From Deltaproteobacteria bacterium (GTDB taxonomy: Bacteria; Desulfobacterota; Syntrophia; Syntrophales; UBA8958): 64,000 nt of DNA. Positions 17,556-31,236 of the stretch are shown piece by piece. Numbering within the stretch: position 1 is the stretch's first letter; every line of letters starts with the position of its first letter. The notes below the pieces were generated by a model, which was not told where the DNA came from, searched no databases, and was given only the letters and a program-made list of their open reading frames with translations. Position numbers and translations under genes: made by a program. The stretch lies in assembly GCA_026388335.1 (NCBI GenBank), contig JAPLJZ010000268.1, positions 1,872-65,871 of the forward strand. The letters are read 5' to 3'.

Positions 17556-17680
17556 ATTCCGGTTCTAAATCAAAGCGCTATCTTCGTTGGCATCGTCATC
17601 GGCTCCTCGACGTATGAAAAATACGCCTGCGTCGCCTCTTCCTCACCGTCTTGATATCATCTTTGATTTAGAACCGGAAT
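17556..17680. terminator. 20-bp perfect inverted repeat (85-nt spacer) between convergent genes
   Basis: ATTCCGGTTCTAAATCAAAG (17556-17575) pairs with CTTTGATTTAGAACCGGAAT (17661-17680). A smaller inner hairpin CGTAT-GAAAA-ATACG is present. The right arm abuts the autotransporter stop codon. Confidence 0.45.
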
Positions 17681-20137
17681 TTAGAATTGAAAGCGGAGGC
17701 CGAGGGTGATGCTCTGGGCGCTGTAAGCGCTCTGACCAAGCTGGGCCTCGTAATTGAGGTAAGCCAGGACGAGATCTGTCCAGTGGATGTTGAGCCCCGC
17801 TCCTACACTAAAGAAGTTCCGCTCCGGGGCGACACTCTCAATGGTAAAGGCCGAACTTCCCTGGGCAAGAGAGGCGATTGTCGACGGATTCACATTCCCG
17901 AACTCGTGTCGGTAAAACCCCCATAGACGAGGCACTATCCTAAGTTTGTCTTTCGTCCAATTCCATGCCCCTTTGATCCCCGCGCTCCCCTGATACGATT
18001 CTGTCGTCTGACGATCCACCTGAAGATTCAGGGAGTCTGCCCCCGACTCGGTGTAACCGTTTACACCCATCCAGAGATACTGAAACGTGAGGGCCGGACC
18101 GATAGTCCAGGAACCAAAGCTGAAATCATAACCCGTTCCCCCATAACCCGTTGCCTGCCCCCCGGAAGGACTCGCTGTCGCTGTACGGTCAATACCCGGA
18201 AAAACGATCCGCCGGTTATTGTTAAAATTATTCCAACCGTAGCTTGCCTGGCCGTCAAGGTAAAAAGACTTCCGGAAATAGGTTCCATAGAACCCTAAGG
18301 TATAACCATCCAGTTTAACAGTGCTTCCGGCGTCGTTGATCCATGATTTGGCCGTATTCATCCCGAACAGCGCCCCGCCGACAAAATTTTCCGAAAAGCG
18401 GTAGTCCGTCCCCAGGGTGAGGCCGCCGTTCCTGAAATCGTAGCCCCGCTGCCCCGCCGTATCCTTCTGGTCCCCCAGGACAAGATTACCTCTTACGAAA
18501 AAACCCCAGTTGGGGTCAAGTGCCACGGGGATCATCCCCTGGAGATCATCGCTGTTGCTGGCCAGGAGAAAGGGCTGCCGGGGACTGTTAGCGTAAAGTA
18601 AGCCCAGGTTTTCCAATCCCTGAAAACTGAACCCCTGCACCCCCGCGCGCAAATCCCCAAGACGGGAGGTGACATTGCCGGCCTGAAACGAGGCTACCCC
18701 GGAAGTCATGTTGGTGTGAGCCACGTCGGCGATAGGAGATAACTGGTCATAGGCGGCGGCCACCTGCGCGTTGGTTGTCAGGGCGTCTATCTTACTCATG
18801 ACTGTATTCAAATCCCCGCTTGCTGAATTGGCCAGAGGATTGAGCATTTGAGCTACAGCAAGCTGATTTCCCGTTAATGAGGAAACCATATCACTGGAAG
18901 TAAAATCGCTCTCTGCCATCAGATAGACCTCATTAGCTCGGTCATACTGGGGTTTCAAAAATAACGTCGGGGTAATCTTGTTACCAATGATATTGGCGAA
19001 TTTCCCAGAAACACCCGCGGCGGAAAGAATCGTTCCGAACACTGTCTTGTTGGCAGGAACCGCACTCCCCTGCCATAAAGTCTCCAACGTCCCGTCAATG
19101 TTTGCGCTACCGCCTACATTGAGCAAATCGTTGCTTGTCGGAGACGCCACCTTTACCTGGAGCTTTCCGGTGTTATTCTGTGAATAACTGCTGCTGCCGC
19201 TGATAGTTAAAGTACCTATCGAGCTGCTGGAGCTGCCCGGCGAAACAATGCCGGAATTGATGAGCTTCCCTCCGATCGAGCCGGCACCGCCGAGGCTGCC
19301 ATTGATTCCCACGGTCACATTGCCGGTTCCCGTGCCGCTTCCCGATGTGTTGTTCACCAAAAGCAGTCCTGCGTTCACCGTCGTCCCGCCGCCGTAAGTA
19401 TTGGCGCCCTTAATCGTGATTGTCCCGGTTCCTGTTTTTGTGAATGATCCGCTTCCCGAAATATTGCCGGACAATGTTGAGACGTAACCATTTGCATCAA
19501 ATGTCCCGCCGCCCGCATTGAGGGTCACGTTCCTGGCCGATGTCACGTCCGCCGCCAGTTGCAGGGTTCCTCCATCAAAGATTAGCCCGCCAGACAAGGC
19601 CCCCAGGCTGGCGTCCTGCGTGATATTAACGACGCCGCCATTGAAGAACGTGCCGCCGGTGTACGAAGTGGGGCCGCGTAAGGTCAGTGTTCCCGATCCG
19701 GCTTTATAGAGACCGCCGGAACCGTTGATGGTTCCGTTGTTGGTCAGGGTGTTGTCTCCGGCATCGAACCAGAGGTTTCCCGAAATAGTGCCGGAATTGA
19801 CGAGGCCATTCCCGGTGCCCATAAACTTTGCCGCGTAGGAATCCGTTCCGGACGCGCCGAGTGTGCCGTTATTGGTCAGGGTGTTATTATCGCCCTGCGC
19901 TAAAAATGCGATGCTGTTTGTTCCGGAAACAGTGATCGTACCCTGGTTGTCCACCGTGTTTCCGGTGTTGACGCGTATTCCCCACAGGCCTGTCGAGTCT
20001 CCGGTGATGCTTCCGGTTGCGGTGTTTGTTATCGTATTGTTGTCGTAGACGTGGATGCCGTTTCCGCCGGACAGCGGGCTGATGCTGCTGGAATTGGTGA
20101 TGATGTTGTTGTTGACGGCATCGATACCGGTAAACAC
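17681..20137 (-). CDS. autotransporter beta-barrel plus repeat-rich passenger; C-terminal part of a frameshifted gene
   Basis: 818 aa with no signal peptide and a GTG pseudo-start. It has autotransporter-associated repeats (GSGTLTLRG, GTGTITIKGANTYGGGTTV) and a barrel ending LGLRFQF. The reading frame continues upstream without a start, into the 20143-21279 ORF region. Confidence 0.8.
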   Translation of the reverse strand: MFTGIDAVNNNIITNSSSISPLSGGNGIHVYDNNTITNTATGSITGDSTGLWGIRVNTGNTVDNQGTITVSGTNSIAFLAQGDNNTLTNNGTLGASGTDSYAAKFMGTGNGLVNSGTISGNLWFDAGDNTLTNNGTINGSGGLYKAGSGTLTLRGPTSYTGGTFFNGGVVNITQDASLGALSGGLIFDGGTLQLAADVTSARNVTLNAGGGTFDANGYVSTLSGNISGSGSFTKTGTGTITIKGANTYGGGTTVNAGLLLVNNTSGSGTGTGNVTVGINGSLGGAGSIGGKLINSGIVSPGSSSSSIGTLTISGSSSYSQNNTGKLQVKVASPTSNDLLNVGGSANIDGTLETLWQGSAVPANKTVFGTILSAAGVSGKFANIIGNKITPTLFLKPQYDRANEVYLMAESDFTSSDMVSSLTGNQLAVAQMLNPLANSASGDLNTVMSKIDALTTNAQVAAAYDQLSPIADVAHTNMTSGVASFQAGNVTSRLGDLRAGVQGFSFQGLENLGLLYANSPRQPFLLASNSDDLQGMIPVALDPNWGFFVRGNLVLGDQKDTAGQRGYDFRNGGLTLGTDYRFSENFVGGALFGMNTAKSWINDAGSTVKLDGYTLGFYGTYFRKSFYLDGQASYGWNNFNNNRRIVFPGIDRTATASPSGGQATGYGGTGYDFSFGSWTIGPALTFQYLWMGVNGYTESGADSLNLQVDRQTTESYQGSAGIKGAWNWTKDKLRIVPRLWGFYRHEFGNVNPSTIASLAQGSSAFTIESVAPERNFFSVGAGLNIHWTDLVLAYLNYEAQLGQSAYSAQSITLGLRFQF

Positions 20138-20142
20138 ATTGC

Positions 20143-21279
20143 TTATGTTTGCGCTGTTGCTGATCGTATTGTAGCTGGCGGCCAGGATGCCTGTAGGCTG
20201 ATTATCCGCGCCGGGTCCGGGTTGATGGCGATTGTGTTGTTGATGGTGGTGTTGCTCACGCCGCTGTTGTCGAAGAAATTGAAAATGTCGATGGATGAAT
20301 TGGCCTGGTCGAACACACTGACCTTGATTTCTCTACCGTTGACGGTCGTAACGGCATAGTTGTATTTTAGCGCGTAGACATCGCTCGGATAGACCGGGTG
20401 CAAGTCGCACGATTCACCGCTTTCACACCCCAGAGGGGCACCGCCAGACCCGGCCAGCACCTCATAAGTGCCGTCGTGTAAGGTTCGGTAATACAGGTGC
20501 TCATGTCCGGCAAACAGGATCGAGGCATTTGTATTTGTGGCAGTGCCTGAGGTGGTTATCGTCTGCCAAGTATTCTTCATATTCTCATTCGCCGTAGGAT
20601 CCGTGGGAGAGTATGCCGGGATGTGGGTAAATACAAATGAATGGGCTGCCTTGCTGTTTGCCAGCAGACCTTGCATCCAAGTTTGCTGTGTCGCATCGAT
20701 GCCATAAACCGGCGCAGTACCGTCTGCAATGGCAAGATAGCTGTCGGCAATTATAAACTGTGAATTGCCAAAATTAAATGAAAAGGCCAACTTGTTATAA
20801 GAAGCGCCAGGACCGTTCTGTGTCCAACTGCCGTTAAAAAGGCCCTGAAATTCTATTTGCCTCGACAGTGCTTGATCGTCAAGATGAGGAGCATGGTTCA
20901 TTGTGTAGAGTTCGTGGTTGCCCACGGCGTAAGCTGACGGAATGCCTGCGGCATCCAGGCGATTTGTAAACAGGGCTTTGAAATCGTTCAGATTGGCCGT
21001 GCCGCCCCGGTAGGCGGCATCACCGCCGAAGATCACCACTTTGGGGGCGGGGGTCAAGGCGAGGATGCTGTCCACAATTGGGGTGAGAACAGTCCAGTTG
21101 GTGAGATCGTTGTTGGCATCGCCTCGGGTGTCTGCCACCCAAACGAAACTCTGCGATTGGTCGGCATGTGCGGGAATAACCCCGCCGATGACCGCAAAAA
21201 CAAGCAAGAATGTCCCGAGAAGAAACGCTGGGATCGCACATCTGCTTCTGATTGACGTCATTTGTGAAATCTGGGACAA
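20143..21279 (-). CDS. calcineurin-like metallophosphoesterase with signal peptide; N-terminal part of the frameshifted autotransporter
   Basis: 378 aa with signal peptide AIPAFLLGTFLLVFAVIGGVIPAHA. Phosphoesterase motifs are FGGDAAY, GNHELY, FTHIP and GHEHLYYR. The last roughly 20 codons look out of frame. Confidence 0.8.
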   Translation of the reverse strand: MSQISQMTSIRSRCAIPAFLLGTFLLVFAVIGGVIPAHADQSQSFVWVADTRGDANNDLTNWTVLTPIVDSILALTPAPKVVIFGGDAAYRGGTANLNDFKALFTNRLDAAGIPSAYAVGNHELYTMNHAPHLDDQALSRQIEFQGLFNGSWTQNGPGASYNKLAFSFNFGNSQFIIADSYLAIADGTAPVYGIDATQQTWMQGLLANSKAAHSFVFTHIPAYSPTDPTANENMKNTWQTITTSGTATNTNASILFAGHEHLYYRTLHDGTYEVLAGSGGAPLGCESGESCDLHPVYPSDVYALKYNYAVTTVNGREIKVSVFDQANSSIDIFNFFDNSGVSNTTINNTIAINPDPARIISLQASWPPATIRSATAQT

Positions 21280-21340: not shown

Positions 21341-22312
21341 TCATCTGGCGGGCATGGCAACGCGGAAACCATAAATTGAGGTCCTGCTGGATGGATAACC
21401 CCAGTCTCGGTTTGCTGCCCGGGTAGTTGCCGGTATGCTGATCCAGGAACCGCCGCGCAGTACACGCGTTGTGCCGACAGGCGGCCCCTGAGGGTCGTTG
21501 CGAGGACTGCTGCCATAATAGTGATCCTCATACCAGTCTTGGCACCACTCCCAGACGTTTCCGCTCATATCGTAGAAACCCAGACCGTTAGGCAGCTTTT
21601 TACCGACGGCCTGGGTTTTATCTTTGGCATTATCGCCCAGCCAGGCATACTTGGGCAGGGACGAAAGATCGTTCGTCCCCGCCCATTTCTCATTTTTCCC
21701 GCCGCTCCGGGCGGCAAACTCCCATTGCGCTTCCGTGGGCAGTCGGAAAGTCCGTCCTGTTTTTTGGGACAACCACTCCGTGAACGCTGCCGCGTCATGC
21801 CAGGATATGCCGACAACCGGATGATCGTCCGCCGTCAAGGCATCTCCCAGGAGGGCATAATGCTCGCTGATACCCGTATAGGCACTTTCGTTGCCTTCAT
21901 TTTCCTCCCATTCCGGTAGGTGACTCCCCGTCTCGAGGGTGAATCGCCGGTATTCCCGGTTGGTGACCTCATACTTTCCCAAATAGAAATCGCTCACGCA
22001 CACTTCGTGAACCGGTTCCTCATATATCGCCGGAGCAAAATCTTCCAAGTAAATCTGATGGTCGGAAAGCAACTTGTCCTCTCTGCTCTTAAAGGTATTC
22101 CCCATCCGATAGCAGCCGCCCTTAACGAAGATGAATTCCATCTCTGTGTTGGTTTCGGTAAAAACATCCCCCCTGGTCACGGGAAGGGTCTTCCCCTTTC
22201 CCTTCCCCCGATCTGCTTGATTATTTCTCCCCTCATCCCCCATGGCGACGCTTCCCATCATATTGAAAACCAGGATTATAAGGAGATAAAAAGATAGAAT
22301 GAGTCGTTGCAT
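21341..22312 (-). CDS. exported FGE-sulfatase (SUMF1/formylglycine-generating-enzyme-like) domain protein
   Basis: Segments PVVGISWHDAAAFTEWLSQKTGRTFRLPTEAQWEFAARSG, SGNVWEWCQDWY and RVLRGGSW are typical. The start was set at MQRLILSFYLLIILVF (signal-like); the longer ORF reaches 22366. Confidence 0.85.
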   Translation of the reverse strand: MQRLILSFYLLIILVFNMMGSVAMGDEGRNNQADRGKGKGKTLPVTRGDVFTETNTEMEFIFVKGGCYRMGNTFKSREDKLLSDHQIYLEDFAPAIYEEPVHEVCVSDFYLGKYEVTNREYRRFTLETGSHLPEWEENEGNESAYTGISEHYALLGDALTADDHPVVGISWHDAAAFTEWLSQKTGRTFRLPTEAQWEFAARSGGKNEKWAGTNDLSSLPKYAWLGDNAKDKTQAVGKKLPNGLGFYDMSGNVWEWCQDWYEDHYYGSSPRNDPQGPPVGTTRVLRGGSWISIPATTRAANRDWGYPSSRTSIYGFRVAMPAR

Positions 22313-22460
22313 AATCTTCACCCAGATGCGCCCGGGAGGGCATGTCGTCCAGTCATTCTGAAACATGAAAACCTAAAAGAAGTCGGTTTATTAATCAATC
22401 ATTCCATATATTTAATAAAAATAAGCGACCCACAGGAAAAGATTATATTTGTTGCTATTC

Positions 22461-23276
22461 TTATCTTTTAAGATGATAAACCGCTGTGGCTTCTGTCCAG
22501 TCCGTCAGATCAATCTGGTTCAACCTCCTGACAAGGTCGCTGATCATTCCGGTTGACTTTGCATCATAGACCTGGAAAATCCCTTCTCTAAACCCGATGG
22601 AAAGCAGCCATTCCTTCTTCCGGGTGGCGATGATCTTGATTTTTTCTTCAGCAGATCTTTCTTTGTAGTTCGGCAGGAACATGGCTTTCAGATGAATAGG
22701 GCTATCCGCGGGAGGGAATTGGTATGCCATTCCTGCTCTGGTAAAATTGTCTGTCATATTTGCATTGGGGAGAAGGAGGGTTACGGAACCGTCTGCCGCA
22801 ATGGAGAAGATATAGACGTAGGAGTCTGCGCTTACTTGGTAGAAGATATTAACTTCTTCGCCTTCTTTCAGATCTGTTTTTGAGAGTGACAACTTTGTGG
22901 AGAGACCTTCTCCCTTTTCAGGATAAACCGGCATAACAAGGGCGTTGAGTTTAACCCTGTAAAGATTTCTGTCCTTCTCATCCCATTCCTCTTTGACAAT
23001 ATTAACCTTCTCTATCTTTCCTCTGACAGCGGCATAGATCAGGTCTTCGGCAATCTGGTAATTGGAAACCAAGGTGTGAGATTTGATGAATACGCCGACT
23101 GCCTTTTCTACTGCCTTCTTCTGTGCATCAATCTTTGCCCTCTCTTTAACCTCTTTCTGGGTTTCAATCTCCCCCAATAATGCCTCGCCCATCGACTCGA
23201 CCCAGACCGGTTTCTCCGCGGCAAGACAGACAAGAGGAAGAATCAGAAATATGCATATCACGAGAATCTTTTTCAT
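22461..23276 (-). CDS. exported DUF4384-domain protein with LPP20/FlgT-like N-terminal region
   Basis: Signal peptide MKKILVICIFLILPLVCLAAE. The C-terminal half, EGEEVNIFYQVSADSYVYIFSIAADGSVTLLLPN, matches the DUF4384 pattern from memory. Confidence 0.65.
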   Translation of the reverse strand: MKKILVICIFLILPLVCLAAEKPVWVESMGEALLGEIETQKEVKERAKIDAQKKAVEKAVGVFIKSHTLVSNYQIAEDLIYAAVRGKIEKVNIVKEEWDEKDRNLYRVKLNALVMPVYPEKGEGLSTKLSLSKTDLKEGEEVNIFYQVSADSYVYIFSIAADGSVTLLLPNANMTDNFTRAGMAYQFPPADSPIHLKAMFLPNYKERSAEEKIKIIATRKKEWLLSIGFREGIFQVYDAKSTGMISDLVRRLNQIDLTDWTEATAVYHLKR

Positions 23277-24020
23277 AAACGATCCCTAATTCTTTTTCGC
23301 CCCAATCAACTGCGGTGTCTGCTCGTTGTTGAATTGTTTACGTGCTATGCGTTCCACCTGGGGTTTCAGGTAGCTGAATAGGTCGCTGATCGCAATGGAA
23401 CCATCCTTCTTTACAACATCCTCATTCTTGATTCCTTTGAGCATAAAGTAGGTGAAAAGTCCGTGCCCCTTTTCATCATAGGTTGAGCTTATCTGCTCAC
23501 CAGATGAGGCGGACAGAACCGTCATATTCTTTGACAAAACAATGTTGCTCTGGAGATTCATAACAAGAGGTCGGGCACCTTTCGCTAGAACCGACCTGCC
23601 GCCCGCACCGGAGAAACAGGAATCAAGGGCAACAACGATTTCTTTTGCCGGGAGTTTGCCGAGAGCATCGTACATTCTTTTCAATGAATAGCCTGTCTCG
23701 GCGATAAAAGACGGATCGCCGTCGTAGGGCACAAGGTAAGCCCCGCCGGTCTTGGGATCAGGCGCTCCATGGCCGGAATAATAGATAAAAACTGTGCTAT
23801 CCTTTTCCACATTATTATGCAGCCATTTTTCAAAGTATTTTACCAGATCAACGTTCGTCGCACGATCATTCAGGAGAGTTACGACATTCTCTTCCGGATA
23901 ACCCATAACCTTTGTCAGATATTCCGTGAACGTCTTTGCATCAGCAGTAGCGAAGTCTGCCTTGGGAAGTTTCTGGCGATACTGCTCAATGCCGATCACG
24001 ATGGCATAGGCGTTTTTATT
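23272..24020. repeat. direct repeat copy 1 (caspase-domain coding segment plus 14 nt of 3' flank)
   Basis: Pairs with 24778-25526. The 3' roughly 190 nt are almost identical, including the TAAACGATCC flank, and identity decays toward the 5' end. Boundaries are approximate. Confidence 0.8.
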
Positions 24021-24737
24021 GGGTTTTGCTTTTATCGCCGGAAGTTCGTCAATGTCTGATTTGACGGTAGATTTTTCAGAGGCATAGACTGGCATCTCCT
24101 TCTGATCCCTGACGGCTGCTGTGCTGGATATGCCGGTTTTGGACTTGCTGAATTCAGCCAACTTTACAGAACTGCTGAGTGCATACTCCAGTCGAACTCT
24201 GGCTTCCGCATCAGCCCGTTCGGTAGCTTTCCTAAAGCTGTCGGGGCCTGCGAATGTTCCAACAGGCTGGTTGCTTTGACCTTTAATAGTATCGATTGGT
24301 TGCTTATCTGGTGTTAAAAATATCGCCCGCTTATCGGATTTCGCACTATCTCCAATACCAGCAGTCCAATCTAATACAGCTACCAAGTTGGCGTTGATTG
24401 CAGAGACATCCTCAAATTTATCTATCCTGATTACATCCTTGAAATTCTTTCGATAGACATCAATGTCCTTTTCGAGCATTTTCTCGAGCTCCTCAGATGT
24501 TTTCCAAGACCTACCCTGTCGACCATCTTCTATGGTACTTTTGGTATTTCCCGAGATAAGAACAGCAAGTACGAGATTGGGATAGGCGGGAGACGCAGAT
24601 TGGAAATTAATACCAGCAAGTGGATCGCGGTATTCTTCAGACATAGGGCTTGGTACTGCACACCCTGTCATCGCCATAATCGCAGACATAATAAAGATCA
24701 CACTGATCAAAGAAATTGAATCACCCTTAATATTCAT
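23286..24737 (-). CDS. caspase-family (peptidase C14) lipoprotein
   Basis: Lipobox AMTGC. The caspase core has the His motif FIYYSGHGAP and the Cys motif VALDSCFSGAGG. The N-terminal roughly 200 aa have no recognisable domain. Confidence 0.88.
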   Translation of the reverse strand: MNIKGDSISLISVIFIMSAIMAMTGCAVPSPMSEEYRDPLAGINFQSASPAYPNLVLAVLISGNTKSTIEDGRQGRSWKTSEELEKMLEKDIDVYRKNFKDVIRIDKFEDVSAINANLVAVLDWTAGIGDSAKSDKRAIFLTPDKQPIDTIKGQSNQPVGTFAGPDSFRKATERADAEARVRLEYALSSSVKLAEFSKSKTGISSTAAVRDQKEMPVYASEKSTVKSDIDELPAIKAKPNKNAYAIVIGIEQYRQKLPKADFATADAKTFTEYLTKVMGYPEENVVTLLNDRATNVDLVKYFEKWLHNNVEKDSTVFIYYSGHGAPDPKTGGAYLVPYDGDPSFIAETGYSLKRMYDALGKLPAKEIVVALDSCFSGAGGRSVLAKGARPLVMNLQSNIVLSKNMTVLSASSGEQISSTYDEKGHGLFTYFMLKGIKNEDVVKKDGSIAISDLFSYLKPQVERIARKQFNNEQTPQLIGAKKN

Positions 24738-24777
24738 AACGTCTTCTACCTCAATTGTAAAAAATCATGTTGCCTTT

Positions 24778-25526
24778 TTCGTAAACGATCCCTAATTCTT
24801 TTTCGCCCCAATCAACTGCGGTGTCTGCTCGTTGTTGTACTGTTTTCTGGCAATGCGTTCCACCTGGGGTTTCAGGTAGCTGAATAGGTCGCTGATCGCA
24901 ATGGAACCATCCTTCTTTACAACATCCTCATTCTTGATTCCTTTGAGCATAAAGTAGGTAAAGAGCCCGTGTCCTTTTTCATCATAGGTTGAGCTTATCT
25001 GCTCGCCCGATGAGGCAGACATGACCGTGATGTTTTTGGGCATAGCCATGTTACTTTGGAGATTCATCACAAGCGGTCGTGCACCCTTCGCAAGAACACT
25101 TCTTCCCCCTGCACCGGAGAAGCAAGAGTCCAGGGCAACGATAATTTCTTTAGCTGGTAGTTTCCCGAGGGCGACATAGAGCTTCTTCAAAGGATACCCT
25201 GTCTGTGCGATGAATGAAGGATCTCCATCGTAGGGAACAAGATAGGCATCACCGTTCTTGGGGTTGGGGGCGCCGTGACCGGAATAATAGATGAAAATAG
25301 AGCTATCCTTTTCAGCATGGTTGACAAGCCACTGTTCAAAATATTTCTCAAAGTCACTCTTGGTCGCATATTCATTGGTCAAAGTGACAATATTCTCTTC
25401 CGGATAACCCATGACCTTGGAAAGATATTCGCTCACCAGTTTTGCGTCGCTTACAGCAAAATCGGCTTTGGGCAATTTCTGACGATACTTCTCGATTCCG
25501 ATCACGATGGCGTAGGCATTCTTTTT
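24778..25526. repeat. direct repeat copy 2 (caspase-domain coding segment plus 3' flank)
   Basis: See copy 1. The last 70 codons of both genes encode the same peptide (GHGLFTYFMLKGIKNEDVVKKDGSIAISDLFSYLKPQVERIARKQ...). Confidence 0.8.
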
Positions 25527-26984
25527 CAGGGTCGCTGACTTGCGGGGAAGATCATCAACGTCCTGTTTGGCGGCCTGAAATAGCATCGGCGATGCGTCGG
25601 AAGTCGGAGTCGGCGCCCCCATACTTTTCTGCGCCGCCATAACTATATACTTGAACTTATCACTTGCCTTCGTGACGCCGCCGGTTTTTGCCGTATTTAT
25701 TGCCGTCTCCGCAACGCGTAGCGGGCTGTCTTGTCCCTCTGTTTCGTCGCTTTCCACATCAGGAAAAATGCCGTTGCCCTGGATTACTTTGCCCGAAGGC
25801 AGATAATACTTTGCAGTAGTCAGCCTGAGAGCCGATCCGTCGCTGAGAGGAAGTATCGTTTGGACGTTTCCCTTTCCGAAGGTATGCTTGCCCAGCAATA
25901 GCGCTCTGCTCTGATCCTGGAGAGCACCCGCTACTATCTCTGCACCGCTGGCCGTGCCTTCGTTGACAAGTACTATGATCGGATAGAGCGGCTGTGTGCC
26001 GATAGTCTTACCTTCAAACTTATTCTCCGATCCCGCGCCTCTGCCGCGAATTGTCACGATGGTGTTGGCCCCGACAAACTTGCCGGCCACGTCCGTCGCA
26101 ACGGATAATAATCCGCCTGGGTTATTGCGCAGGTCAAGAACCAAACCTTTGAATTTCGAAGACCTTGAACCGAGCTTATTAAGGGCATTTTCCACGTCCC
26201 GAGCGGCATTCTCCTGGAAGGAAGAAATCCTCAAATATCCGATTCCCTCCTGTAGCTCTCTGAATTTAACGCTCTTTACTGAAATAATAGCCCTGACTAA
26301 AGTAAACTCCCGGGGCTGCTCAAAACCGTTGCGCATTATTGCGAGAGTCACCTTTGAGTCTTTCGGCCCCCTCAACTTTTTCACGGCTTCTGTAACGGTG
26401 ATACCCTGTGTAGAGATGCCGTCTATTCTGGTGATTTGATCTCTCGCCTTTATTCCCGCCAGATAAGCGGGTGTATCTTCAATCGGCGATACTACGGTCA
26501 GAATGCCTTTAGCGGCGTTAATTTCCAATCCCACGCCGCCGAAGCTCCCACGCGTATCGACTTGCATTTCTTTGTACATTTCCGGAGTTAGGAAACCGCT
26601 GTGCGGGTCCAACGCTGCGAGCATACCGGTGATGGCGGCATATTCCCATTTCCGAGGGTCAGAAGGGGCTGACTTTGACCAGATCAGATATCGATCGGCC
26701 ACCAGGTTTTCAGCCTTTTTTGCGTCAATGCCGATGGCGCTGTAATCTATACTAATTTTAGCAAAACTTCTATTATTGGCATTAAGCAATTCCTCCATGC
26801 CATTGACAGCCGATGAAGCCAGATAAGAAGGGTCGGGCTGCTCAACATAGTTTTCCATTATTTTAGAAAATGCATCACGGAAGACGACTGGCGATTCTTC
26901 GGCAAATGCCGACAAATGCCATCCTGCAAGCAGCGTGACTATGAGCAGGGCACCCATCATTTTTCCTGCCTGCAATCCCCTCAT
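24792..26984 (-). CDS. S41 C-terminal-processing peptidase (PDZ-containing) fused to a C-terminal caspase (C14) domain
   Basis: Start at MRGLQAGKMMGALLIV after GAAGGAG, with a signal peptide. S41 motifs are present: a PDZ region (GILTVVSPIEDTPAYLAGIKARDQITRIDG), LVLDLRNNPGG, the Ser motif NEGTASGAEI and the Lys motif TFGKGNVQT. A caspase core follows (YYSGHGAP, ALDSCFSGAGG). Confidence 0.88.
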   Translation of the reverse strand: MRGLQAGKMMGALLIVTLLAGWHLSAFAEESPVVFRDAFSKIMENYVEQPDPSYLASSAVNGMEELLNANNRSFAKISIDYSAIGIDAKKAENLVADRYLIWSKSAPSDPRKWEYAAITGMLAALDPHSGFLTPEMYKEMQVDTRGSFGGVGLEINAAKGILTVVSPIEDTPAYLAGIKARDQITRIDGISTQGITVTEAVKKLRGPKDSKVTLAIMRNGFEQPREFTLVRAIISVKSVKFRELQEGIGYLRISSFQENAARDVENALNKLGSRSSKFKGLVLDLRNNPGGLLSVATDVAGKFVGANTIVTIRGRGAGSENKFEGKTIGTQPLYPIIVLVNEGTASGAEIVAGALQDQSRALLLGKHTFGKGNVQTILPLSDGSALRLTTAKYYLPSGKVIQGNGIFPDVESDETEGQDSPLRVAETAINTAKTGGVTKASDKFKYIVMAAQKSMGAPTPTSDASPMLFQAAKQDVDDLPRKSATLKKNAYAIVIGIEKYRQKLPKADFAVSDAKLVSEYLSKVMGYPEENIVTLTNEYATKSDFEKYFEQWLVNHAEKDSSIFIYYSGHGAPNPKNGDAYLVPYDGDPSFIAQTGYPLKKLYVALGKLPAKEIIVALDSCFSGAGGRSVLAKGARPLVMNLQSNMAMPKNITVMSASSGEQISSTYDEKGHGLFTYFMLKGIKNEDVVKKDGSIAISDLFSYLKPQVERIARKQYNNEQTPQLIGAKKN

Positions 26985-27055
26985 AGATACTCCTTCGAAT
27001 CTCTGCTTCGCGCAGCCTGTGTGCGACCCGCGCAGGAAGTCTCGCATTGCGGAGG

Positions 27056-27097
27056 CACCGCTAAGGCACTTCGGTTCACAGAAGTGCCTTAGCGGTG
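27056..27097. other. 17-bp perfect hairpin upstream of the S41-caspase gene
   Basis: CACCGCTAAGGCACTTC-ggttcaca-GAAGTGCCTTAGCGGTG, followed on the + strand by an AT-rich stretch. Its function is unknown. Confidence 0.5.
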
Positions 27098-27523
27098 TAT
27101 AATATAATGTAATAATAAACGATATCTAGTTTCGTGTGTGGGAAACTTTTATTAATAAAGAGTAACCTTCCCATCATCAACATTGTTGATTGCTCCTTGT
27201 TTGAGTGCCGACGAGACAAAACGGGAATTTCTCTGTTTGATATCCATAACAACTCCAGTTGTTTGCGATAAGATTCGGATGTCAACGGTATTCGCCGAAA
27301 CAAGCGGCGCTTCTTGGCTGCTGCTTCCGACCAACCTCAGCTCATGACCATGACTTTTGTCTGGCTGGGAGCGCAATTGAGCCCGATATTTAATTGATAT
27401 TGCTTTTGACGGGTCGAAGTATAGGGGGGTTATTCTCGTTCGTCAAGGATATTTTGCGTCGAAAAACAGGGGCATGCGATGCGGTATGGGGAACATCCAA
27501 TAGCCTTCAGCCTTAGTTAGCAG

Positions 27524-27566
27524 CCTGGAGTCAGGCCTAAAATAAAATTAAAGACCTGGCTCCAGG
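27524..27566 (-). terminator. hairpin downstream of orphan hcp
   Basis: CCTGGAGTCAGG (27524-27535) pairs with CCTGGCTCCAGG (27555-27566) at 11 of 12 positions, with an AU-rich loop. There is no clear U-tract. Confidence 0.35.
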
Positions 27567-27578
27567 GAGAGTCGTTTA

Positions 27579-28064
27579 TTAAGCTTTCGGCGCCTTCCAG
27601 TTGTCTTCCGCCTCAATTCCGTCCGGCGTGTACGTCCAGACTACATCCTCATAGGTGAAGGCGATTTCCTGCATGTGCTTGAAGGGCTTATTCTCCTCCA
27701 GGAAGGTGTAGGGGAAAAATTCCCGGGAGTTTACAATGATCGCTTCCTTCAGCTTAATCGTGAAGTATTTTTCCTCCTGCCCTTTTTCACTGATCCGGAA
27801 GAAGGTGATCTCTGCATCGAGATGTTCACCGGAGCAGCAGGCCTGGAAGAGCTTGGGGGTGTGCTTGCCCATGTTAGTGATGAGCTTCAGGGGCAGATGG
27901 ATGCGCTGGCCCGTGGGCAAACCCGTATGGGTGTCCTTGGGAATTTCCACTGCATGGTCCATCTGATAGCAGATAATCAGATTTTCCCGGCCCTGCTGGG
28001 TGCAGTCTCCCTGAATTTCTCCCTGATTCTTGCCCGTTACCTTCATGTAAATTGTCATTGCCAT
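27579..28064 (-). CDS. hcp: type VI secretion tube protein Hcp (TssD), orphan copy
   Basis: 161 aa, MAMTIYMKVTGKNQGEIQGDC...HTGLPTGQRIHLPL, typical of the Hcp1 family. It differs at 12 positions from the copy at 39219-39704 by manual alignment. Confidence 0.93.
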   Translation of the reverse strand: MAMTIYMKVTGKNQGEIQGDCTQQGRENLIICYQMDHAVEIPKDTHTGLPTGQRIHLPLKLITNMGKHTPKLFQACCSGEHLDAEITFFRISEKGQEEKYFTIKLKEAIIVNSREFFPYTFLEENKPFKHMQEIAFTYEDVVWTYTPDGIEAEDNWKAPKA

Positions 28065-28115
28065 GGTTCATTTCCTCCTTCTTTCTTTTATTGTGTCTGT
28101 TTTAATTCCTATAGC

Positions 28116-28131
28116 AGCATATCCCGTGCCA
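28116..28131 (-). promoter_or_regulatory. sigma-54 (-24/-12) promoter of orphan hcp
   Basis: The - strand reads TGGCACGGGATATGCT, with GG and GC at the canonical spacing (consensus TGGCACG-N4-TTGC). It lies about 50 nt upstream of the hcp start. Confidence 0.7.
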
Positions 28132-28253
28132 TGAGGCAATATGCAAACATTTAAGGTAGTTGCAAAAACGCCTGCTTTGGTTGTACCCAAACATGCAAAC
28201 TTTGTGGGCAGTGGTGCCAACAATGGAGGTAGTACAAGCCGGACATAGCAAGT

Positions 28254-29489
28254 TCATTCGGTGGTAATGCCGTATCGTTTCATTTTCTTACGTAGGCCTT
28301 CCCGGCTCATCCCCATATGCCTTGCCGCTGCGGACCGGTTGCCATTTGTCGCGGCAATGGTTTCCAGAATGAGACGGCATTCCGTTTCTTTCAGCGACGG
28401 GGCATGCTCAGCGGCCATATCGGCAACCGGGGTCTCCCGCACATGATTGCGCAGATCTTCCGGAGTAATGGTGTCCGTGGCTGCCAAGGCAACAGCCCGT
28501 TCCACCTCATTTTCAAGTTCCCTGATATTCCCAGGCCAGGAATAGGCAGCCAACTTTTTCAGGGTCTCCTTCGCAAAGTGCATCGGCGGACGGCCAAGAC
28601 GTTTTACCGATTGTTCAAGAAAATAATTAAGCAGGAGCGGGATATCATCCGGTCGCTCCCGCAGCGGAGGTAAATGGAAGTGAACAACATTCAGGCGGTA
28701 AAAGAGGTCTTCGCGGAATGCTTTTGCTGTTACAGCCTTCCAGATGTCCGTGTTCGTGGCGGCGATGATGCGAACATCTACAGGGATGGATTTTCTTCCG
28801 CCGACATGCTCCAGGACCCTTTCCTGAATCACGCGCAGGATTCTGGCCTGCGCAGCGGGCGGCATGTCCCCGATTTCGTCAAAGAACAGAGTGCCGCCGT
28901 TGGCCTGTTCGATCTTGCCGATACGCTTTTCCACCCCTGTTGCCACGCCTTTTTCCACGCCAAACATCTCGGATTCGAAGATGCTCTCGGGTATCGCGGA
29001 ACAGTTCAGCGCAACAAAAGGCCCGTTACAACGGCTGCTGTTATAGTGTATGGTTTTAGCGACCAATTCCTTACCGGTTCCCGTTTCGCCCGTAATCAGT
29101 ATGTTTACGAGGCTATCGGCAATTTTTTGTACTTTGTCAAGAAGTGTCAGCAGAATGGGACTTTTACCGATGATGCGCACGGGACTGAAGTGTTGGCGGA
29201 TCGTTTGCCGTAAATTGACATTTTCATGGGAAAGGTGATCTTTCGCTGCCAGCAGTTTCTTTTCCGTTTCTTTCAAATCATCAATGACGCATTCGAGATG
29301 GTATTGCCTGGATTCGACCTGAACCATCATCATCCCGAAGGCCTCAGCCAGTTTTATGACAAGCGCGGGATAGACGCCCTCCTTGGTAAGTTCGAAAAGG
29401 ACATTCTCATTCCCGTATTTGCCGATGGAGATCTCCTGGCAGAGTCCGATGAGATACTGCAGCAATTTATCCGATTGATTCTTTTGCAT
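28254..29489 (-). CDS. sigma-54-dependent Fis-family transcriptional activator (bEBP) with atypical GAFTGA loop
   Basis: AAA+ core with Walker A GETGTGKE, LFFDEIGDM and RIIAATN, plus a C-terminal HTH (AAARHMGMSREGLRKKMKRYGI). The roughly 100-aa N-terminal region has no REC, GAF or PAS signature. The sigma-54 contact loop reads GVATGV instead of GAFTGA. Confidence 0.88.
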   Translation of the reverse strand: MQKNQSDKLLQYLIGLCQEISIGKYGNENVLFELTKEGVYPALVIKLAEAFGMMMVQVESRQYHLECVIDDLKETEKKLLAAKDHLSHENVNLRQTIRQHFSPVRIIGKSPILLTLLDKVQKIADSLVNILITGETGTGKELVAKTIHYNSSRCNGPFVALNCSAIPESIFESEMFGVEKGVATGVEKRIGKIEQANGGTLFFDEIGDMPPAAQARILRVIQERVLEHVGGRKSIPVDVRIIAATNTDIWKAVTAKAFREDLFYRLNVVHFHLPPLRERPDDIPLLLNYFLEQSVKRLGRPPMHFAKETLKKLAAYSWPGNIRELENEVERAVALAATDTITPEDLRNHVRETPVADMAAEHAPSLKETECRLILETIAATNGNRSAAARHMGMSREGLRKKMKRYGITTE

Positions 29490-29598
29490 GGGTTACTCCC
29501 TATAACTCTCACTCCCTACCGGCGATATTTATTTCATGATGGGAAGGCCTGGTTTTGTCGGAGCTCCGACATAACCTCCGACTCTCCCGGGTAAAGTT

Positions 29599-31236
29599 TC
29601 ATTTACGGGCGAAGCTTTCATGCATCTTCATGGCCACGGGCGGACCGGCCATTTTGTCCATAATAACCTCGATGTAAACGCCGGCATTGCACATCTCGGC
29701 CTTATTCATCGCCTCTTCAAGCTCGGCATTGGTGGTTACCTTTGCCGTAAACCAGTTTGTACAACCCAAGGCCTCGGGCAGTTTTGCATAGTTCCACTGT
29801 GCAAGATCGTTGTAATAGGTCATGGGCTCCCGGCAGAGCAGTCGTTCAATAAGGTAGCCGTCGTTGTTGAGACAGAAGATAACGGGCTTCAGTCCGAAAC
29901 GGCCAAACTGGCTGACTTCCTGGGCTGTAAGCTGGTGAGCACCCTCACCGGTGATGAGTATGGTCCGGCGCTCAGGAGCAGCCAGCGCCGCACCGAAGGC
30001 TGCCGGCGTAGCCCAACCTATGGAAGCCCATAAGGCCTGGTTATGAAAGACTGCACCTTTCGGCATCATTGCGCACTCGAGACCCATCGAGGTTGTTCCT
30101 GTCTCGGCAATAACAATGTCGTCAGGCTTGAAAAACCTCTCCCAGCGAGGGTAAAGGTATTCCGGTGTGATTCTGTCACTATATTTTCCTTCGGGCTCTG
30201 AAAGCCCATGGGTTTTCGGCGCGTTGATGCTCTTTTTCCCTATTTTTTTGACCAGCGCGTCAATAAGATCTTTCATTTCCACTCCGGGGTAGACCGCGTG
30301 GCCAACGCGTACGGAGTGGTGCCCCACTGCAATCATCTTGGCCTTTTCTATGACGGCAGTATAGGCCACGGTATTGAGATCGCTCCAGAGAGCACCCAGA
30401 TTCAGCACACAGTCGCAGTTTTCTATAAACTGCCGGATCTCCGGGTTAATATCGCGGCCAATGTACATACCCATAAACTGGGAATGTGTTTCGTCGAGTG
30501 CTGTTTTATCCATGGTCATGGTGGCAAAGGGGAGGCCTGTAGCCTCGATGAGTGCCTGTGCTTCAGCCCTCAGGTCCAGACGGCAGATGAGGTAACCGGC
30601 CAGAATAACGGCTATTTGCGCTATTTCGAGTTTCTCTATTATGGCGTTGACCGCAGCGTCAAGTGTGTCGGGAACACTCGAGGGAAGAGTTGCTGGGGGA
30701 AGCGCTGTACCGAGAACGGTCATCCTTGCATAGTCGTCCGGTATGGCCAAATAAACGGGACGTCGGTGTGTGAGGGCTGCATTGACGACGCGCTCCATCT
30801 CAGTGACGGCGTTCTCCGGCGTGAGGATGGCACTTGCGCAGACCGCCGGCTCCGTCATCTTCGCAAAGAGATCAAACTGACCGGTGCCAAGGGTGTGGTG
30901 TACAATCCTACGTTCTTGCTGCGTCCTTGTATTGGGCATACCGACTATATGAAAGATTGGCAGGTGTTCAGTAAAAGAACCTGCAATACCGCATAAGGCT
31001 GAAAGCTCACCGACACCGAAAGTTGTAGACAGGGCCGAGAAGCCCCTGATCCGTGCATAGCCATCAGCGGCATACGCTGCATTCAGCTCATTGCAGCAAC
31101 CGATCCAGCGCATCTCATTGTCGTTACAGACTGCATCGTTTACTGCAAAGGCGTAATCGCCAGGAACACCGAATACGTCTTTAATGCCGAGTATTTTCAA
31201 GCGTCCAAGAACATGCTCTATTACAGTTTCTGCCAT
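29599..31236 (-). CDS. thiamine-diphosphate-dependent alpha-keto-acid decarboxylase (indolepyruvate/phenylpyruvate/pyruvate decarboxylase family)
   Basis: 545 aa. VFGVPGDYAFAVNDAV...WIGCCNELNAAYAADGYARIRG...TTFGVGELSALCGIAGSFTEHLPIFHIVG...HHTLGTGQF closely follows the IpdC/PDC pattern. Confidence 0.85.
   Translation of the reverse strand: MAETVIEHVLGRLKILGIKDVFGVPGDYAFAVNDAVCNDNEMRWIGCCNELNAAYAADGYARIRGFSALSTTFGVGELSALCGIAGSFTEHLPIFHIVGMPNTRTQQERRIVHHTLGTGQFDLFAKMTEPAVCASAILTPENAVTEMERVVNAALTHRRPVYLAIPDDYARMTVLGTALPPATLPSSVPDTLDAAVNAIIEKLEIAQIAVILAGYLICRLDLRAEAQALIEATGLPFATMTMDKTALDETHSQFMGMYIGRDINPEIRQFIENCDCVLNLGALWSDLNTVAYTAVIEKAKMIAVGHHSVRVGHAVYPGVEMKDLIDALVKKIGKKSINAPKTHGLSEPEGKYSDRITPEYLYPRWERFFKPDDIVIAETGTTSMGLECAMMPKGAVFHNQALWASIGWATPAAFGAALAAPERRTILITGEGAHQLTAQEVSQFGRFGLKPVIFCLNNDGYLIERLLCREPMTYYNDLAQWNYAKLPEALGCTNWFTAKVTTNAELEEAMNKAEMCNAGVYIEVIMDKMAGPPVAMKMHESFARK

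What the first reader, a model, noticed from the sequence alone, without database searches (positions are those of the whole stretch)
21341..27097. Exported caspase / S41-caspase / DUF4384 / FGE-type four-gene cluster wedged inside the T6SS locus
Four consecutive - strand genes all carry signal peptides or lipoboxes:
- an FGE-sulfatase-type domain protein;
- a DUF4384 protein;
- a caspase (C14) lipoprotein;
- an S41-PDZ peptidase fused to a second caspase domain.

Both caspase domains keep the His (YYSGHG) and Cys (DSCFSG) motifs. The S41 module keeps its Ser (GTASGAE) and Lys (GKG) motifs. Three predicted active proteases are therefore sent to the envelope together with two putative recognition/binding modules.

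FGE-sulfatase and DUF4384 domains are known from comparative genomics to travel with prokaryotic caspases, but to my knowledge no function has been assigned to such a set.

The cluster sits between the vgrG operon and the orphan hcp with its sigma-54 activator. By eye it is more AT-rich than the flanking T6SS genes. Strong hairpins bracket the wider non-T6SS block at 17556-17680 and 27056-27097.

Hypothesis: it is either a periplasmic proteolytic cascade acting as an envelope-breach/conflict (suicide or counter-attack) module, or a processing machine linked to the T6SS.
Basis: partly seen in the sequence, partly recalled or inferred. Interest (0 to 1): 0.78.

Follow-up and report, generated by a model that had tools for sequence, protein, structure and literature searches.

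The report
Exported caspase array with DUF4384 partner
Three of the four genes are a local copy of a widespread but undescribed bacterial operon that sends caspase-like proteases with interchangeable front ends, plus one shared partner protein, to the cell envelope; its place inside a type VI secretion locus and beside the FGE-type gene appears to be incidental.

Summary
In detail: four exported proteins with the stated domains, and intact His/Cys (both caspases) and Ser/Lys (S41) catalytic motifs.

Across 86 related loci (1.17 Mb) the recurrent unit is one to several tandem genes for exported, mostly lipoprotein, proteases. Each has a variable N-terminal part (ankyrin most often; also S41-PDZ, TPR, DUF2846, thioredoxin-like, CARDB, a PelC-like domain) and a near-constant C14 caspase module. 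The array is typically followed within about 10 nt by a 271-aa exported DUF4384 gene.

An FGE-type gene occurs in 1 of the 86 loci; T6SS genes occur in none. The window's FGE-type protein lacks both FGE catalytic cysteines and is most similar to TvpA. It has host-like GC3. In a close relative it sits next to ClpV with no caspase genes between them.

The caspase module is 78–87% identical across phyla while synonymous sites are saturated, so it is under strong purifying selection. No close relative was found on phage or plasmid sequences.

Most likely this is an envelope protease system in which the DUF4384 protein is a shared partner of the constant catalytic module. Its function has not been tested. 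It is a new variant of a known kind, of moderate interest.

The parts
24792..26984 (-). S41-PDZ-caspase fusion gene (730 aa from M22; the mechanical ORF runs to 27047). The CtpA-like S41-PDZ part is about 25533-26984 and the constant caspase module is 24792-25532.
   Evidence: Pfam and NCBIfam. 730-aa homologues. CtpA 7rpq at 2.6e-88 with the Ser/Lys dyad aligned. Type I signal peptide by inspection.
23286..24737 (-). Lipoprotein-caspase gene (483 aa): lipobox Cys26, a PelC/HpaA-like N-domain (about residues 50-200), a linker carrying the SDIDELP motif, and the constant caspase module (23286-24026).
   Evidence: Pfam. Family alignment A2. AF2 model with pLDDT 71; Foldseek hits MALT1 3v4o at 8e-11 and PelC 5t11_G at 9e-5.
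22461..23276 (-). Exported 271-aa DUF4384 protein, 9 nt downstream of the caspase gene. It is the conserved partner of the caspase array.
   Evidence: Pfam 5.4e-19. 798 homologues; the 120 best are all 260-283 aa. 32 of 90 caspase arrays are followed directly by this gene. Reciprocal test.
23286..23480 (-). Gene-conversion tract shared with 24792-24986. The last ~64 codons of the two caspase modules are 95-96% identical in DNA, whereas the first ~140 codons of the modules are saturated at synonymous sites.
   Evidence: Sliding Nei-Gojobori analysis: pS 0.15-0.21 in the tract against 0.68-0.85 over the first ~140 codons.
27418..27446 (-). Sigma-70-like promoter candidate (TTGACG-17-TATACT) between hcp and the caspase operon.
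   Evidence: Consensus scan only. The sigma-54-like site at 28116-28131 lies upstream of hcp, not of this operon.
27058..27097 (-). Perfect 17-bp hairpin in the 5' leader, about 75 nt upstream of the true start codon. It has no T-run and is local to this genome.
   Evidence: Not conserved in orthologous loci. No Rfam match.
21341..22312 (-). Neighbour, NOT part of the conserved unit: an exported, non-catalytic FGE/C-type-lectin-fold (TvpA-like) protein.

Best explanation
Window 22461-26984 is a three-gene operon: S41-PDZ-caspase, lipoprotein-caspase and DUF4384 protein. It belongs to a conserved, multi-phylum operon type that I could not find described in the searchable literature.

Shown:
- Genomes of Thermodesulfobacteriota (Syntrophales, Smithella), Nitrospirota, Nitrospinota, Elusimicrobiota and some Pseudomonadota carry several genes for exported, mostly lipid-anchored proteins.
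- Each of these joins a variable N-terminal part to a near-constant C14 caspase module with an intact His-Cys dyad.
- The genes often stand in tandem arrays. At least one array per genome examined is followed, with translational-coupling distances, by a 271-aa exported DUF4384 gene.

Inferred mechanism:
- The caspase modules are envelope-resident endopeptidases. They probably cut after Arg/Lys, because an Asp sits two residues before the catalytic Cys, as I recall for meta- and paracaspases.
- The variable part selects the substrate, partner or location.
- The single DUF4384 protein binds the constant module of all paralogues, either as a shared regulator (inhibitor or activator) or as a scaffold. 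Having to fit one partner would explain the extreme purifying selection and the gene conversion among paralogues.
- In the S41 fusion, a CtpA-like tail-specific protease is tethered to the same module. A caspase cut could then create the free C-terminus that the PDZ-gated S41 domain degrades.

The role is more likely envelope protein processing or turnover than inter-microbial conflict.

The FGE-type gene, the Metallophos/autotransporter gene and the T6SS genes are neighbours only. The operon lies in a 10.8-kb variable segment that is absent from the corresponding site in a close relative.
For: Composition of the unit:
- Of 101 caspase arrays in 86 loci, 90 have enough downstream sequence to judge, and 32 of these are followed directly by a same-strand DUF4384 gene. 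Gaps run from -20 to 107 nt, with modes at -4 and 9; the window's gap is 9.
- All-against-all clustering of neighbouring ORFs finds no other family in more than 11 loci.
- Starting instead from DUF4384 homologues, 2 of 3 loci have an adjacent caspase gene.
- The same chromosome or assembly carries several caspase loci and one or two DUF4384 genes, e.g. OY760142.1 (L042, L063, L068) and CAXXVL (L039, L046, L083).

Export: 119 of 130 paralogues score as having a signal peptide by my heuristic, 89 of them with a lipobox.

Variable N-terminal parts: 60 of 114 are ankyrin; others are DUF2846, PDZ, TPR, thioredoxin-like and CARDB. The window's lipoprotein has a PelC-like N-domain.

Active site: GHG in 119 of 126 paralogues, D[S/A]CFSG in 122 of 126, and SG.GG[R/K]S in 115 of 126.

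Selection: amino-acid identity is 78-87% across phyla, with pS 0.68-0.85 and pN 0.08-0.13. A 3' conversion tract links the two window paralogues.

Not mobile: no relative on viral contigs, and the best plasmid hit is 36% identical.

S41 part: closest solved relative is CtpA, with the dyad intact.

Exclusion of FGE and the T6SS.
Against: - No biochemical or genetic data exist for any member.
- The DUF4384-caspase interaction is inferred from gene order only. I could not run a complex prediction.
- 58 of the 90 arrays have no adjacent DUF4384 gene, and one DUF4384 locus has no caspase within 7 kb, so the partnership is not obligatory in cis.
- The DUF4384 model is of low confidence (pLDDT 59) and found no structural homologue.
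- Arg/Lys specificity rests on a remembered feature of meta- and paracaspases and was not tested here.
- Eight of the nine distinct loci fetched through S41-caspase homologues lack DUF4384 nearby. The fusion may therefore work without it, or with a copy encoded elsewhere in the genome.
- All related genomes are metagenome-assembled, so copy numbers are minimum estimates.
- Distant FGE-caspase-DUF4384 co-localisation does exist (L088), so a loose functional theme that includes FGE-type binders cannot be excluded.
Confidence: 0.5

Rival explanations
1. One reading: all four genes form one periplasmic proteolytic cascade (S41 activates the caspase zymogens; FGE and DUF4384 are recognition modules) that acts as an envelope-breach, suicide or counter-attack conflict module.
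For: - All four proteins are exported and co-directional, and three catalytic sites are intact.
- PADLOC has a generic 'caspase' model that matches.
- Caspase-like proteases act in known defence systems (established knowledge).
- A distant locus, L088, combines FGE-type proteins, TPR-caspases, a DUF4384 protein, HipA and a reverse transcriptase.
Against: - FGE is absent from 85 of 86 caspase loci.
- S41 is present only in the loci fetched through it, plus L077.
- There is no recurrent sensor, NTPase or toxin neighbour.
- Selection is strongly purifying rather than diversifying.
- No relative is found on phages or plasmids.
- GC3 and the L087 breakpoints separate FGE from the other three genes.
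Confidence: 0.12
2. The cluster is a T6SS accessory: a processing or maturation machine for T6SS components or effectors, or an immunity-like function against incoming effectors.
For: It lies physically between the vgrG-PAAR operon and hcp, the sigma-54 activator and ClpV.
Against: - No Hcp, VgrG, TssC, TssF, TssM or PAAR relative occurs in 86 caspase loci (1.17 Mb), and no T6SS Pfam family appears in the gene tables of the 3 DUF4384 loci.
- hcp has its own sigma-54-like promoter. The caspase operon appears to be a separate transcription unit.
- A close relative has the ClpV-FGE junction without these genes.
- The same gap holds other unrelated cargo: a PEP mutase / TPP decarboxylase pair and an autotransporter.
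Confidence: 0.03
3. The FGE-type protein is a genuine, if facultative, partner. It would be a TvpA-like ligand-binding sensor that recruits targets to, or triggers, the neighbouring caspases, as in FGE-caspase fusion proteins.
For: - FGE-sulfatase is among the domains most often fused to prokaryotic caspase homologues (33 sequences; PMC3501461). Cyanobacterial DGR variable proteins carry orthocaspase-like domains at their N-termini (PMC7517822).
- L088 shows FGE-type genes interleaved with TPR-caspases and a DUF4384 protein.
- 4 of 80 loci fetched through FGE homologues carry some caspase.
- In the window it is co-directional, about 150 nt downstream of DUF4384.
Against: - For this caspase subfamily the association is 1 locus in 86.
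- The base composition differs.
- In the relative L087 the orthologue has no caspase or DUF4384 gene upstream of it, although that contig ends 78 nt after the gene.
- There is no DGR template repeat in the window.
Confidence: 0.15
4. The constant caspase module is not primarily a degradative protease. It would be either a transpeptidase or sortase-like enzyme (as in clan CD relatives such as PorU or the GPI transamidase), or a docking module that assembles diverse N-terminal parts onto a DUF4384 scaffold at the outer membrane.
For: - Conservation is extreme over the whole module, not only the active site.
- The anchor domains look like those of ring-forming lipoproteins. The lipo-caspase N-domain resembles PelC, and the DUF4384 protein's N-domain gives weak FlgT_N matches in 6 of 26 members, best E 1e-4.
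- The N-terminal parts include enzymes (S41, thioredoxin-like) that need no second protease.
Against: - The dyad is retained in about 95% of paralogues, so catalysis is under selection.
- No acceptor-substrate signal or sorting motif was identified.
- The structural similarity to ring-formers is weak.
Confidence: 0.12

Closest known systems
Bacterial orthocaspases / metacaspase-like C14 peptidases (e.g. Microcystis MaOC1; Geobacter GSU0716, PDB 3bij)
   Same: - Peptidase_C14 fold with a His-Cys dyad.
- Asp two residues before the catalytic Cys.
- A basic residue in the loop after the Cys, the region where I recall orthocaspases autoprocess.
- Accessory protein-interaction domains (TPR, ankyrin-like).
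- Foldseek matches MALT1, metacaspases and 3bij at E 1e-8 to 1e-10.
   Different: - Sec- or lipoprotein-exported.
- The caspase module is C-terminal and is kept at 75-90% identity across phyla, behind N-terminal parts that have been swapped.
- Tandem arrays coupled to a dedicated DUF4384 gene.
- None of this is described in the surveys I read (PMC3501461, PMC7475262).
CtpA-LbcA and Prc-NlpI: S41 tail-specific proteases that work with TPR lipoprotein adaptors
   Same: The S41-PDZ part is closest to CtpA (7rpq, 2.6e-88) with the Ser/Lys dyad intact. These are envelope proteases whose targeting is supplied by repeat-containing lipoproteins (from my own knowledge of these systems).
   Different: Here the S41-PDZ unit is fused to a caspase module. 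This fusion is rare: 18 clusters, the window's own included, among the 120 best of a 5.8-billion-protein search. No TPR adaptor gene is adjacent.
TvpA (Treponema denticola variable protein, 2y3c) and other non-catalytic FGE/C-type-lectin-fold binders (PvdO, PorK/GldK)
   Same: TvpA is the best solved match of the window's FGE-type protein (4.9e-32). The catalytic Cys pair of true FGEs is absent. The protein is exported.
   Different: No reverse transcriptase or template repeat is present in the window, so there is no evidence that it is diversified here.
Protease-plus-cognate-inhibitor operons (staphopain-staphostatin) and Craspase Csx29-Csx30
   Same: A cysteine-protease gene is followed by a tightly coupled small beta-rich protein gene. 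[quoted passage not shown]
   Different: This is an analogy only: there is no sequence or structural match. Here both partners are exported, and one DUF4384 gene apparently serves several protease paralogues.

Membership tests
Peptidase C14 (caspase / metacaspase / orthocaspase) | Pfam PF00656 match above the gathering score | tested here: met
   53.9 and 57.8 bits against a cut-off of 21.4.
Peptidase C14 (caspase / metacaspase / orthocaspase) | Catalytic His and Cys in their conserved motifs | tested here: met
   YYSGHG and DSCFSG are present in both window proteins. His is invariant and Cys is present in 18 of 19 family members. Of 126 paralogues, 119 and 122 keep the two motifs.
Peptidase C14 (caspase / metacaspase / orthocaspase) | Caspase-hemoglobinase fold | tested here: met
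   The AF2 model matches MALT1 3v4o (E 8e-11, TM-score to target 0.69), metacaspase 7qp1 and GSU0716 3bij.
Peptidase C14 (caspase / metacaspase / orthocaspase) | Peptidase activity and P1 specificity | not testable with these tools
   Asp at Cys-2 and a conserved R/K in SG.GG[R/K]S suggest Arg/Lys specificity. This is inference only.
S41 C-terminal processing peptidase (Ctp/Prc) | S41 domain with PDZ, above curated cut-offs | tested here: met
   PF03572 at 175 bits against 24. TIGR00225 at 310 bits against 218.6.
S41 C-terminal processing peptidase (Ctp/Prc) | Ser/Lys catalytic dyad | tested here: met
   The Ser of GTASGAE aligns with the residue mutated between 7rpq and 7rqh. The Lys of FGKG is conserved.
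Formylglycine-generating enzyme (true FGE/SUMF1) | FGE-sulfatase domain | tested here: met
   PF03781 at 1.5e-57.
Formylglycine-generating enzyme (true FGE/SUMF1) | Pair of catalytic cysteines near the C-terminus | tested here: not met
   In the alignment to FGEs 6muj and 2q17, 'GGSYLCHDSYCNRYR' corresponds to 'GGSWISIPA---TTRAANR', which has no Cys. All NCBIfam equivalogs fall far below their cut-offs. It is therefore not an FGE enzyme.
DGR variable protein (TvpA type) | Reverse transcriptase nearby, plus a template repeat matching the variable region | tested here: not met
   No repeat of the gene's 3' 360 nt occurs anywhere in the window. I did not scan the window for a reverse-transcriptase domain.
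T6SS effector / accessory module | Conserved genomic linkage to T6SS genes | tested here: not met
   No T6SS marker in any of 86 caspase loci, and no T6SS Pfam family in the gene tables of 3 DUF4384 loci.
T6SS effector / accessory module | T6SS delivery features (PAAR, MIX or Rhs domains, adaptor genes; no Sec signal) | tested here: not met
   Pfam shows none of these domains. All four proteins carry Sec or lipoprotein signals.
Known anti-phage defence systems with caspase-like proteases (PADLOC; EACC1-associated caspases) | Match to the models that define a system, and presence of its partner genes | tested here: not met
   PADLOC gives only the generic 'caspase' model PDLC02987 and nothing for the other genes. 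NF047832 scores 87.5 and 78.7 bits against a cut-off of 140. No recurrent sensor or NTPase neighbour was found.
Lipoprotein-caspase array + DUF4384 operon (defined here) | Exported protein with a variable N-terminal part and the constant caspase module (>=74% identity), followed by a ~271-aa DUF4384 gene at a coupling distance | tested here: met
   The window has two caspase genes whose modules are 85% identical to each other, then the DUF4384 gene after 9 nt. The same layout occurs in 32 arrays from other loci.

The most novel reading that the evidence does not exclude
The lipoprotein-caspase arrays and their DUF4384 partner would be a previously unrecognised, phylum-spanning envelope machine. 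It would consist of a constant caspase catalytic cassette, conserved to a degree unusual for an exported protein, that is plugged onto interchangeable targeting or enzymatic N-terminal parts and governed by one shared DUF4384 subunit. That would amount to a modular periplasmic 'caspase toolkit' with a housekeeping role in Nitrospirota, Syntrophales and their relatives.
Probability: 0.45. Interest if true: 0.7.

Novelty: new variant of a known kind. Interest (0 to 1): 0.55.

Why it matters
Prokaryotic caspase homologues are usually discussed as cytoplasmic cell-death or defence effectors. This case is different. The subfamily is exported and lipid-anchored, present in several copies per genome, and under very strong purifying selection across at least five phyla. 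It also has a dedicated DUF4384 partner.

If the model is right, three things follow:
- DUF4384 gets a first testable functional context, as a partner or regulator of caspase-type proteases. That is consistent with its appearance among the C-terminal domains of Csx30, the Craspase substrate.
- There would be a natural example of 'one catalytic cassette, many targeting parts' in the bacterial envelope.
- The S41-caspase fusion points to a two-protease processing route.

For annotation, the result warns against reading function from position inside a T6SS locus, and against calling FGE-sulfatase-domain proteins enzymes when the catalytic cysteines are missing.

Tried and rejected
- Recent tandem duplication of the caspase gene: rejected. 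Synonymous sites are saturated over the first ~140 codons of the module, and only the last ~64 codons are homogenised.
- Recent horizontal transfer as the cause of the cross-phylum identity: rejected. pS is 0.68-0.85 between phyla, and there is no close relative on phages or plasmids.
- A DGR acting on the FGE-type gene: no template repeat in the window.
- The sigma-54 activator controlling the caspase operon: the only good sigma-54-like site (28116-28131) lies upstream of hcp. Activator genes occur near caspase arrays in only 4-11 of 86 loci.
- The hairpins as ends of a mobile element: they are unrelated in sequence and single-copy, and the window has no tRNA gene.
- A known RNA element in the 530-nt leader: no Rfam match, and the leader is not conserved.
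- The fold of the DUF4384 domain: the AF2 model was too poor (pLDDT 59) and Foldseek returned only noise. A PDB profile search gave only non-significant 'Lipoprotein' hits.
- Other recurrent neighbours (a 164-aa nucleotidyltransferase, PALP, IGPS, GAF-HD): these reflect synteny among relatives or occasional toxin-antitoxin-like genes, not system parts.
- Literature: only 7 papers mention DUF4384, none reports a function, and none describes this operon.

Full report
**1. The observation.**
The four - strand ORFs are present at the stated coordinates, and the domain calls are correct: FGE-sulfatase 1.5e-57, DUF4384 5.4e-19, Peptidase_C14 2.6e-14, and Peptidase_S41 9.5e-52 with PDZ and Peptidase_C14 1.7e-15. 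NCBIfam places the S41 part in TIGR00225 above its cut-off.

Two start codons should be moved. The S41-caspase gene starts at M22 (26984), behind a GAAGGAG site; the window's own database entry and its homologues are 730 aa. The FGE-type gene probably starts at M19 (22312).

With these starts all four proteins begin with export signals. Three are type I signal peptides. The fourth is a lipobox (AMTG-C26) that is invariant in the lipo-caspase family.

The catalytic motifs are intact. His323 and Cys374 are conserved. The S41 Ser is identified by comparing the CtpA structures 7rpq and 7rqh, and the FGKG Lys is kept.

The flanks are a T6SS locus. Both hairpins are real and much more stable than shuffled sequence. 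However, they are unrelated to each other, single-copy in the window, match no Rfam family, and the first is not conserved in orthologous loci.

**2. The recurrent unit.**
The S41-caspase fusion is rare: 18 clusters, the window's own included, among the 120 best hits of a 5.8-billion-protein search. The named ones are Syntrophales, so the window probably comes from that order. In the nine distinct loci fetched through its homologues the fusion stands alone, except in L003, where a 271-aa DUF4384 gene follows 9 nt downstream. None of these loci has T6SS genes, an FGE gene or a second caspase.

The C-terminal caspase module, by contrast, is extremely common and extremely conserved. More than 100 clusters are 75-93% identical over about 250 aa while having different N-terminal parts. 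A scan of one genome per species found 115 relatives. The 76 loci kept (74-87% identity) come from Thermodesulfobacteriota, Nitrospirota, Nitrospinota, Elusimicrobiota and Pseudomonadota, often with several loci per genome.

I called ORFs in all 86 loci (1.17 Mb) and searched them with the window's proteins:

| Window protein | Loci with a relative (of 86) |
|---|---|
| Caspase module | 86 |
| DUF4384 protein | 36-38 (34 with a full-length 270-280 aa gene, 58-92% identical) |
| S41 part | 11 (the 10 fetched through it, plus L077) |
| FGE-type protein | 1 (about 5 kb from the nearest caspase gene; same result with a profile HMM built from 79 FGE-type sequences) |
| Hcp, VgrG, TssC, TssF, TssM, PAAR, Metallophos, autotransporter | 0 |

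Of 90 caspase arrays with enough downstream sequence, 32 are followed directly by a same-strand DUF4384 gene. The gaps run from -20 to 107 nt, with modes at -4 and 9; the window's gap is 9 nt. No other family recurs in more than 11 loci, and the recurrent ones are housekeeping or toxin-antitoxin-like genes.

The reciprocal test started from DUF4384 homologues and gave caspase-DUF4384-caspase, DUF4384-caspase, and one solitary DUF4384 gene. The conserved unit is therefore [variable N-terminal part + constant caspase module], one to several copies, plus the DUF4384 gene. The window carries a two-caspase version.

**3. Anatomy of the family.**
By a simple heuristic, 119 of 130 paralogues have a signal peptide and 89 have a lipobox. 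No Asp at position +2 was noticed in the N-terminal sequences listed. By the E. coli sorting rule this suggests outer-membrane anchoring, which is an inference.

The N-terminal parts are ankyrin repeats in 60 of 114 cases. Other cases carry DUF2846, PDZ, TPR, thioredoxin-like or CARDB domains, and the rest match no Pfam family at this threshold. The window's lipoprotein belongs to a sub-family whose N-domain is modelled as a PelC/HpaA-like alpha/beta lipoprotein domain (Foldseek 5t11_G, E 9e-5).

A short motif, SD[V/I]D[E/D]LP, precedes the caspase module in most paralogues, whatever the N-terminal part.

The active site is retained almost everywhere: GHG in 119 of 126 and D[S/A]CFSG in 122 of 126. 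It is followed by a conserved SG.GG[R/K]S loop. The Asp two residues before the Cys, together with the Arg/Lys interchange in that loop, is what I would expect of an Arg/Lys-directed, autoprocessing orthocaspase. This rests on my knowledge of meta- and paracaspases and was not tested here.

The DUF4384 protein is of constant length and exported. Its N-terminal beta-alpha-beta-beta domain is confidently modelled and gives weak FlgT_N matches (6 of 26 members, best E 1e-4). Its DUF4384 domain is poorly modelled.

**4. Evolution.**
The two window caspase modules are 85% identical in protein but are not a recent duplication. Over the first ~140 codons pS is 0.68-0.85, which is saturated. The last ~64 codons are 95-96% identical in DNA, which marks a gene-conversion tract.

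Between phyla the module keeps 78-87% amino-acid identity, with pS 0.68-0.85 and pN 0.08-0.13. This indicates long-term strong purifying selection, not recent transfer. No close relative occurs on viral contigs or plasmids.

**5. Why the FGE-type gene and the T6SS are only neighbours.**
- The FGE-type protein's best solved relative is TvpA (4.9e-32). In alignments to true FGEs the catalytic Cys pair is missing, so it is a binding module rather than an enzyme.
- Its GC3 (0.61) matches the T6SS and other host genes (0.60-0.74). The three operon genes have GC3 of 0.48-0.54.
- Its only close orthologue is L087 (79% amino-acid identity). That contig aligns to the window at ClpV's 3' end (33730-33114, 88% DNA identity) and again exactly at the FGE-type gene (22320-21332, 85%). 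A single PAS-GGDEF gene lies between them in L087.
- It follows that the window's 10.8 kb between those points is a variable segment. It holds an unannotated ORF (about 32370-32978), a PEP-mutase family gene, a TPP decarboxylase, the sigma-54 activator, hcp, both caspases and DUF4384.
- hcp has its own sigma-54-like promoter (28116-28131). A sigma-70-like candidate (27446-27418) precedes the caspase operon.

At a greater evolutionary distance, FGE-type proteins do co-occur with caspases. L088 carries three FGE-type genes, a reverse transcriptase, two TPR-caspases, a DUF4384 protein and HipA. This agrees with published domain-fusion surveys (PMC3501461, PMC7517822). A loose thematic link therefore remains possible, and I rate it at about 0.15.

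**6. Mechanism (inferred).**
I propose an envelope protease system. The constant caspase module is the catalytic unit, the N-terminal part supplies targeting or a second activity, and the single DUF4384 protein is a shared partner of all paralogues, acting as regulator or scaffold. This would explain three observations:
- one DUF4384 gene serves several caspase genes;
- the caspase module is held almost constant by selection and by gene conversion;
- the gene pair is translationally coupled.

The S41 fusion tethers a CtpA-like, PDZ-gated tail-specific protease to the module. That suggests an endo-cut followed by C-terminal degradation.

My confidence that the unit is composed as described is about 0.85. 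My confidence in the mechanistic model is about 0.4. Overall I give 0.5.

**7. Comparison with known systems, and novelty.**
The proteins are bona fide members of families C14 and S41. The FGE-type protein is a member of the fold family but not of the enzyme family. The cluster fails the tests for a T6SS accessory, a DGR target and a known defence system (see the membership table).

I found no description of exported lipoprotein-caspase arrays with a DUF4384 partner, or of S41-caspase fusions, in the searchable literature. I therefore rate it a new variant of a known kind and of moderate interest.

Noticed in passing
window 17681-21279 (junction about 20137-20200): The Metallophos ORF has a signal peptide. 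The autotransporter ORF has none, and its frame is open upstream without a start codon. They are 5 nt apart in different frames and look like one ~1200-aa phosphoesterase-passenger autotransporter split by a frameshift. This could be a pseudogene, an assembly error or recoding.
   Followed up: partly
window 27579-28064 and 39219-39704; 28116-28131: There are two hcp copies, 92.5% identical in protein. The 'orphan' copy has a near-consensus sigma-54 promoter-like site (TGGCACGGGATATGCT) about 50 nt upstream, and the sigma-54 activator gene lies next to it.
   Followed up: partly
window 29599-32135: A PEP-mutase/isocitrate-lyase family gene (GC 46%) and a TPP-dependent decarboxylase sit inside the T6SS locus. 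This is a phosphonate-biosynthesis-like pair and part of the same 10.8-kb variable segment.
   Followed up: no
window 22320-33114 versus L087 622-2671: Relative to a closely related metagenome contig, 10.8 kb of the window is replaced by one PAS-GGDEF gene. The breakpoints are sharp, at the end of ClpV and at the start of the FGE-type gene.
   Followed up: yes
window 17557-17679: A perfect 20-bp inverted repeat with an 85-nt spacer lies between the converging PAAR-like and autotransporter genes. It is single-copy in the window and matches no Rfam family. It may be a bidirectional terminator or the remnant of a small element.
   Followed up: partly
L088 103-13273: A distant analogue cluster: DUF4384 protein, solute-binding protein, FGE-type, TPR-caspase, HipA, FGE-type, reverse transcriptase (RVT_1), FGE-type, TPR-caspase. 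It looks like a DGR diversifying FGE/C-type-lectin-fold binders next to caspases.
   Followed up: partly
L075 1811-13128; L077 7074-15770: Nitrospirota arrays of five or six caspase paralogues mix the highly conserved module (74-77% identical to the window's) with much more divergent ones (32-62%). In L077 the array begins with an S41-caspase fusion.
   Followed up: no
P0137 (alignment A2); A few paralogues have lost a catalytic residue (Cys->Ser in P0137; GGG, GAG or GKG in place of GHG in 4 of 126). These are possible pseudo-proteases within the arrays.
   Followed up: no
window 11456-17518: The vgrG operon carries DUF2169 fused to long pentapeptide repeats (1281 aa), a second pentapeptide-repeat protein, DUF3540 and a Tox-PAAR-like protein. 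I did not look for an effector domain on the PAAR-like protein.
   Followed up: no
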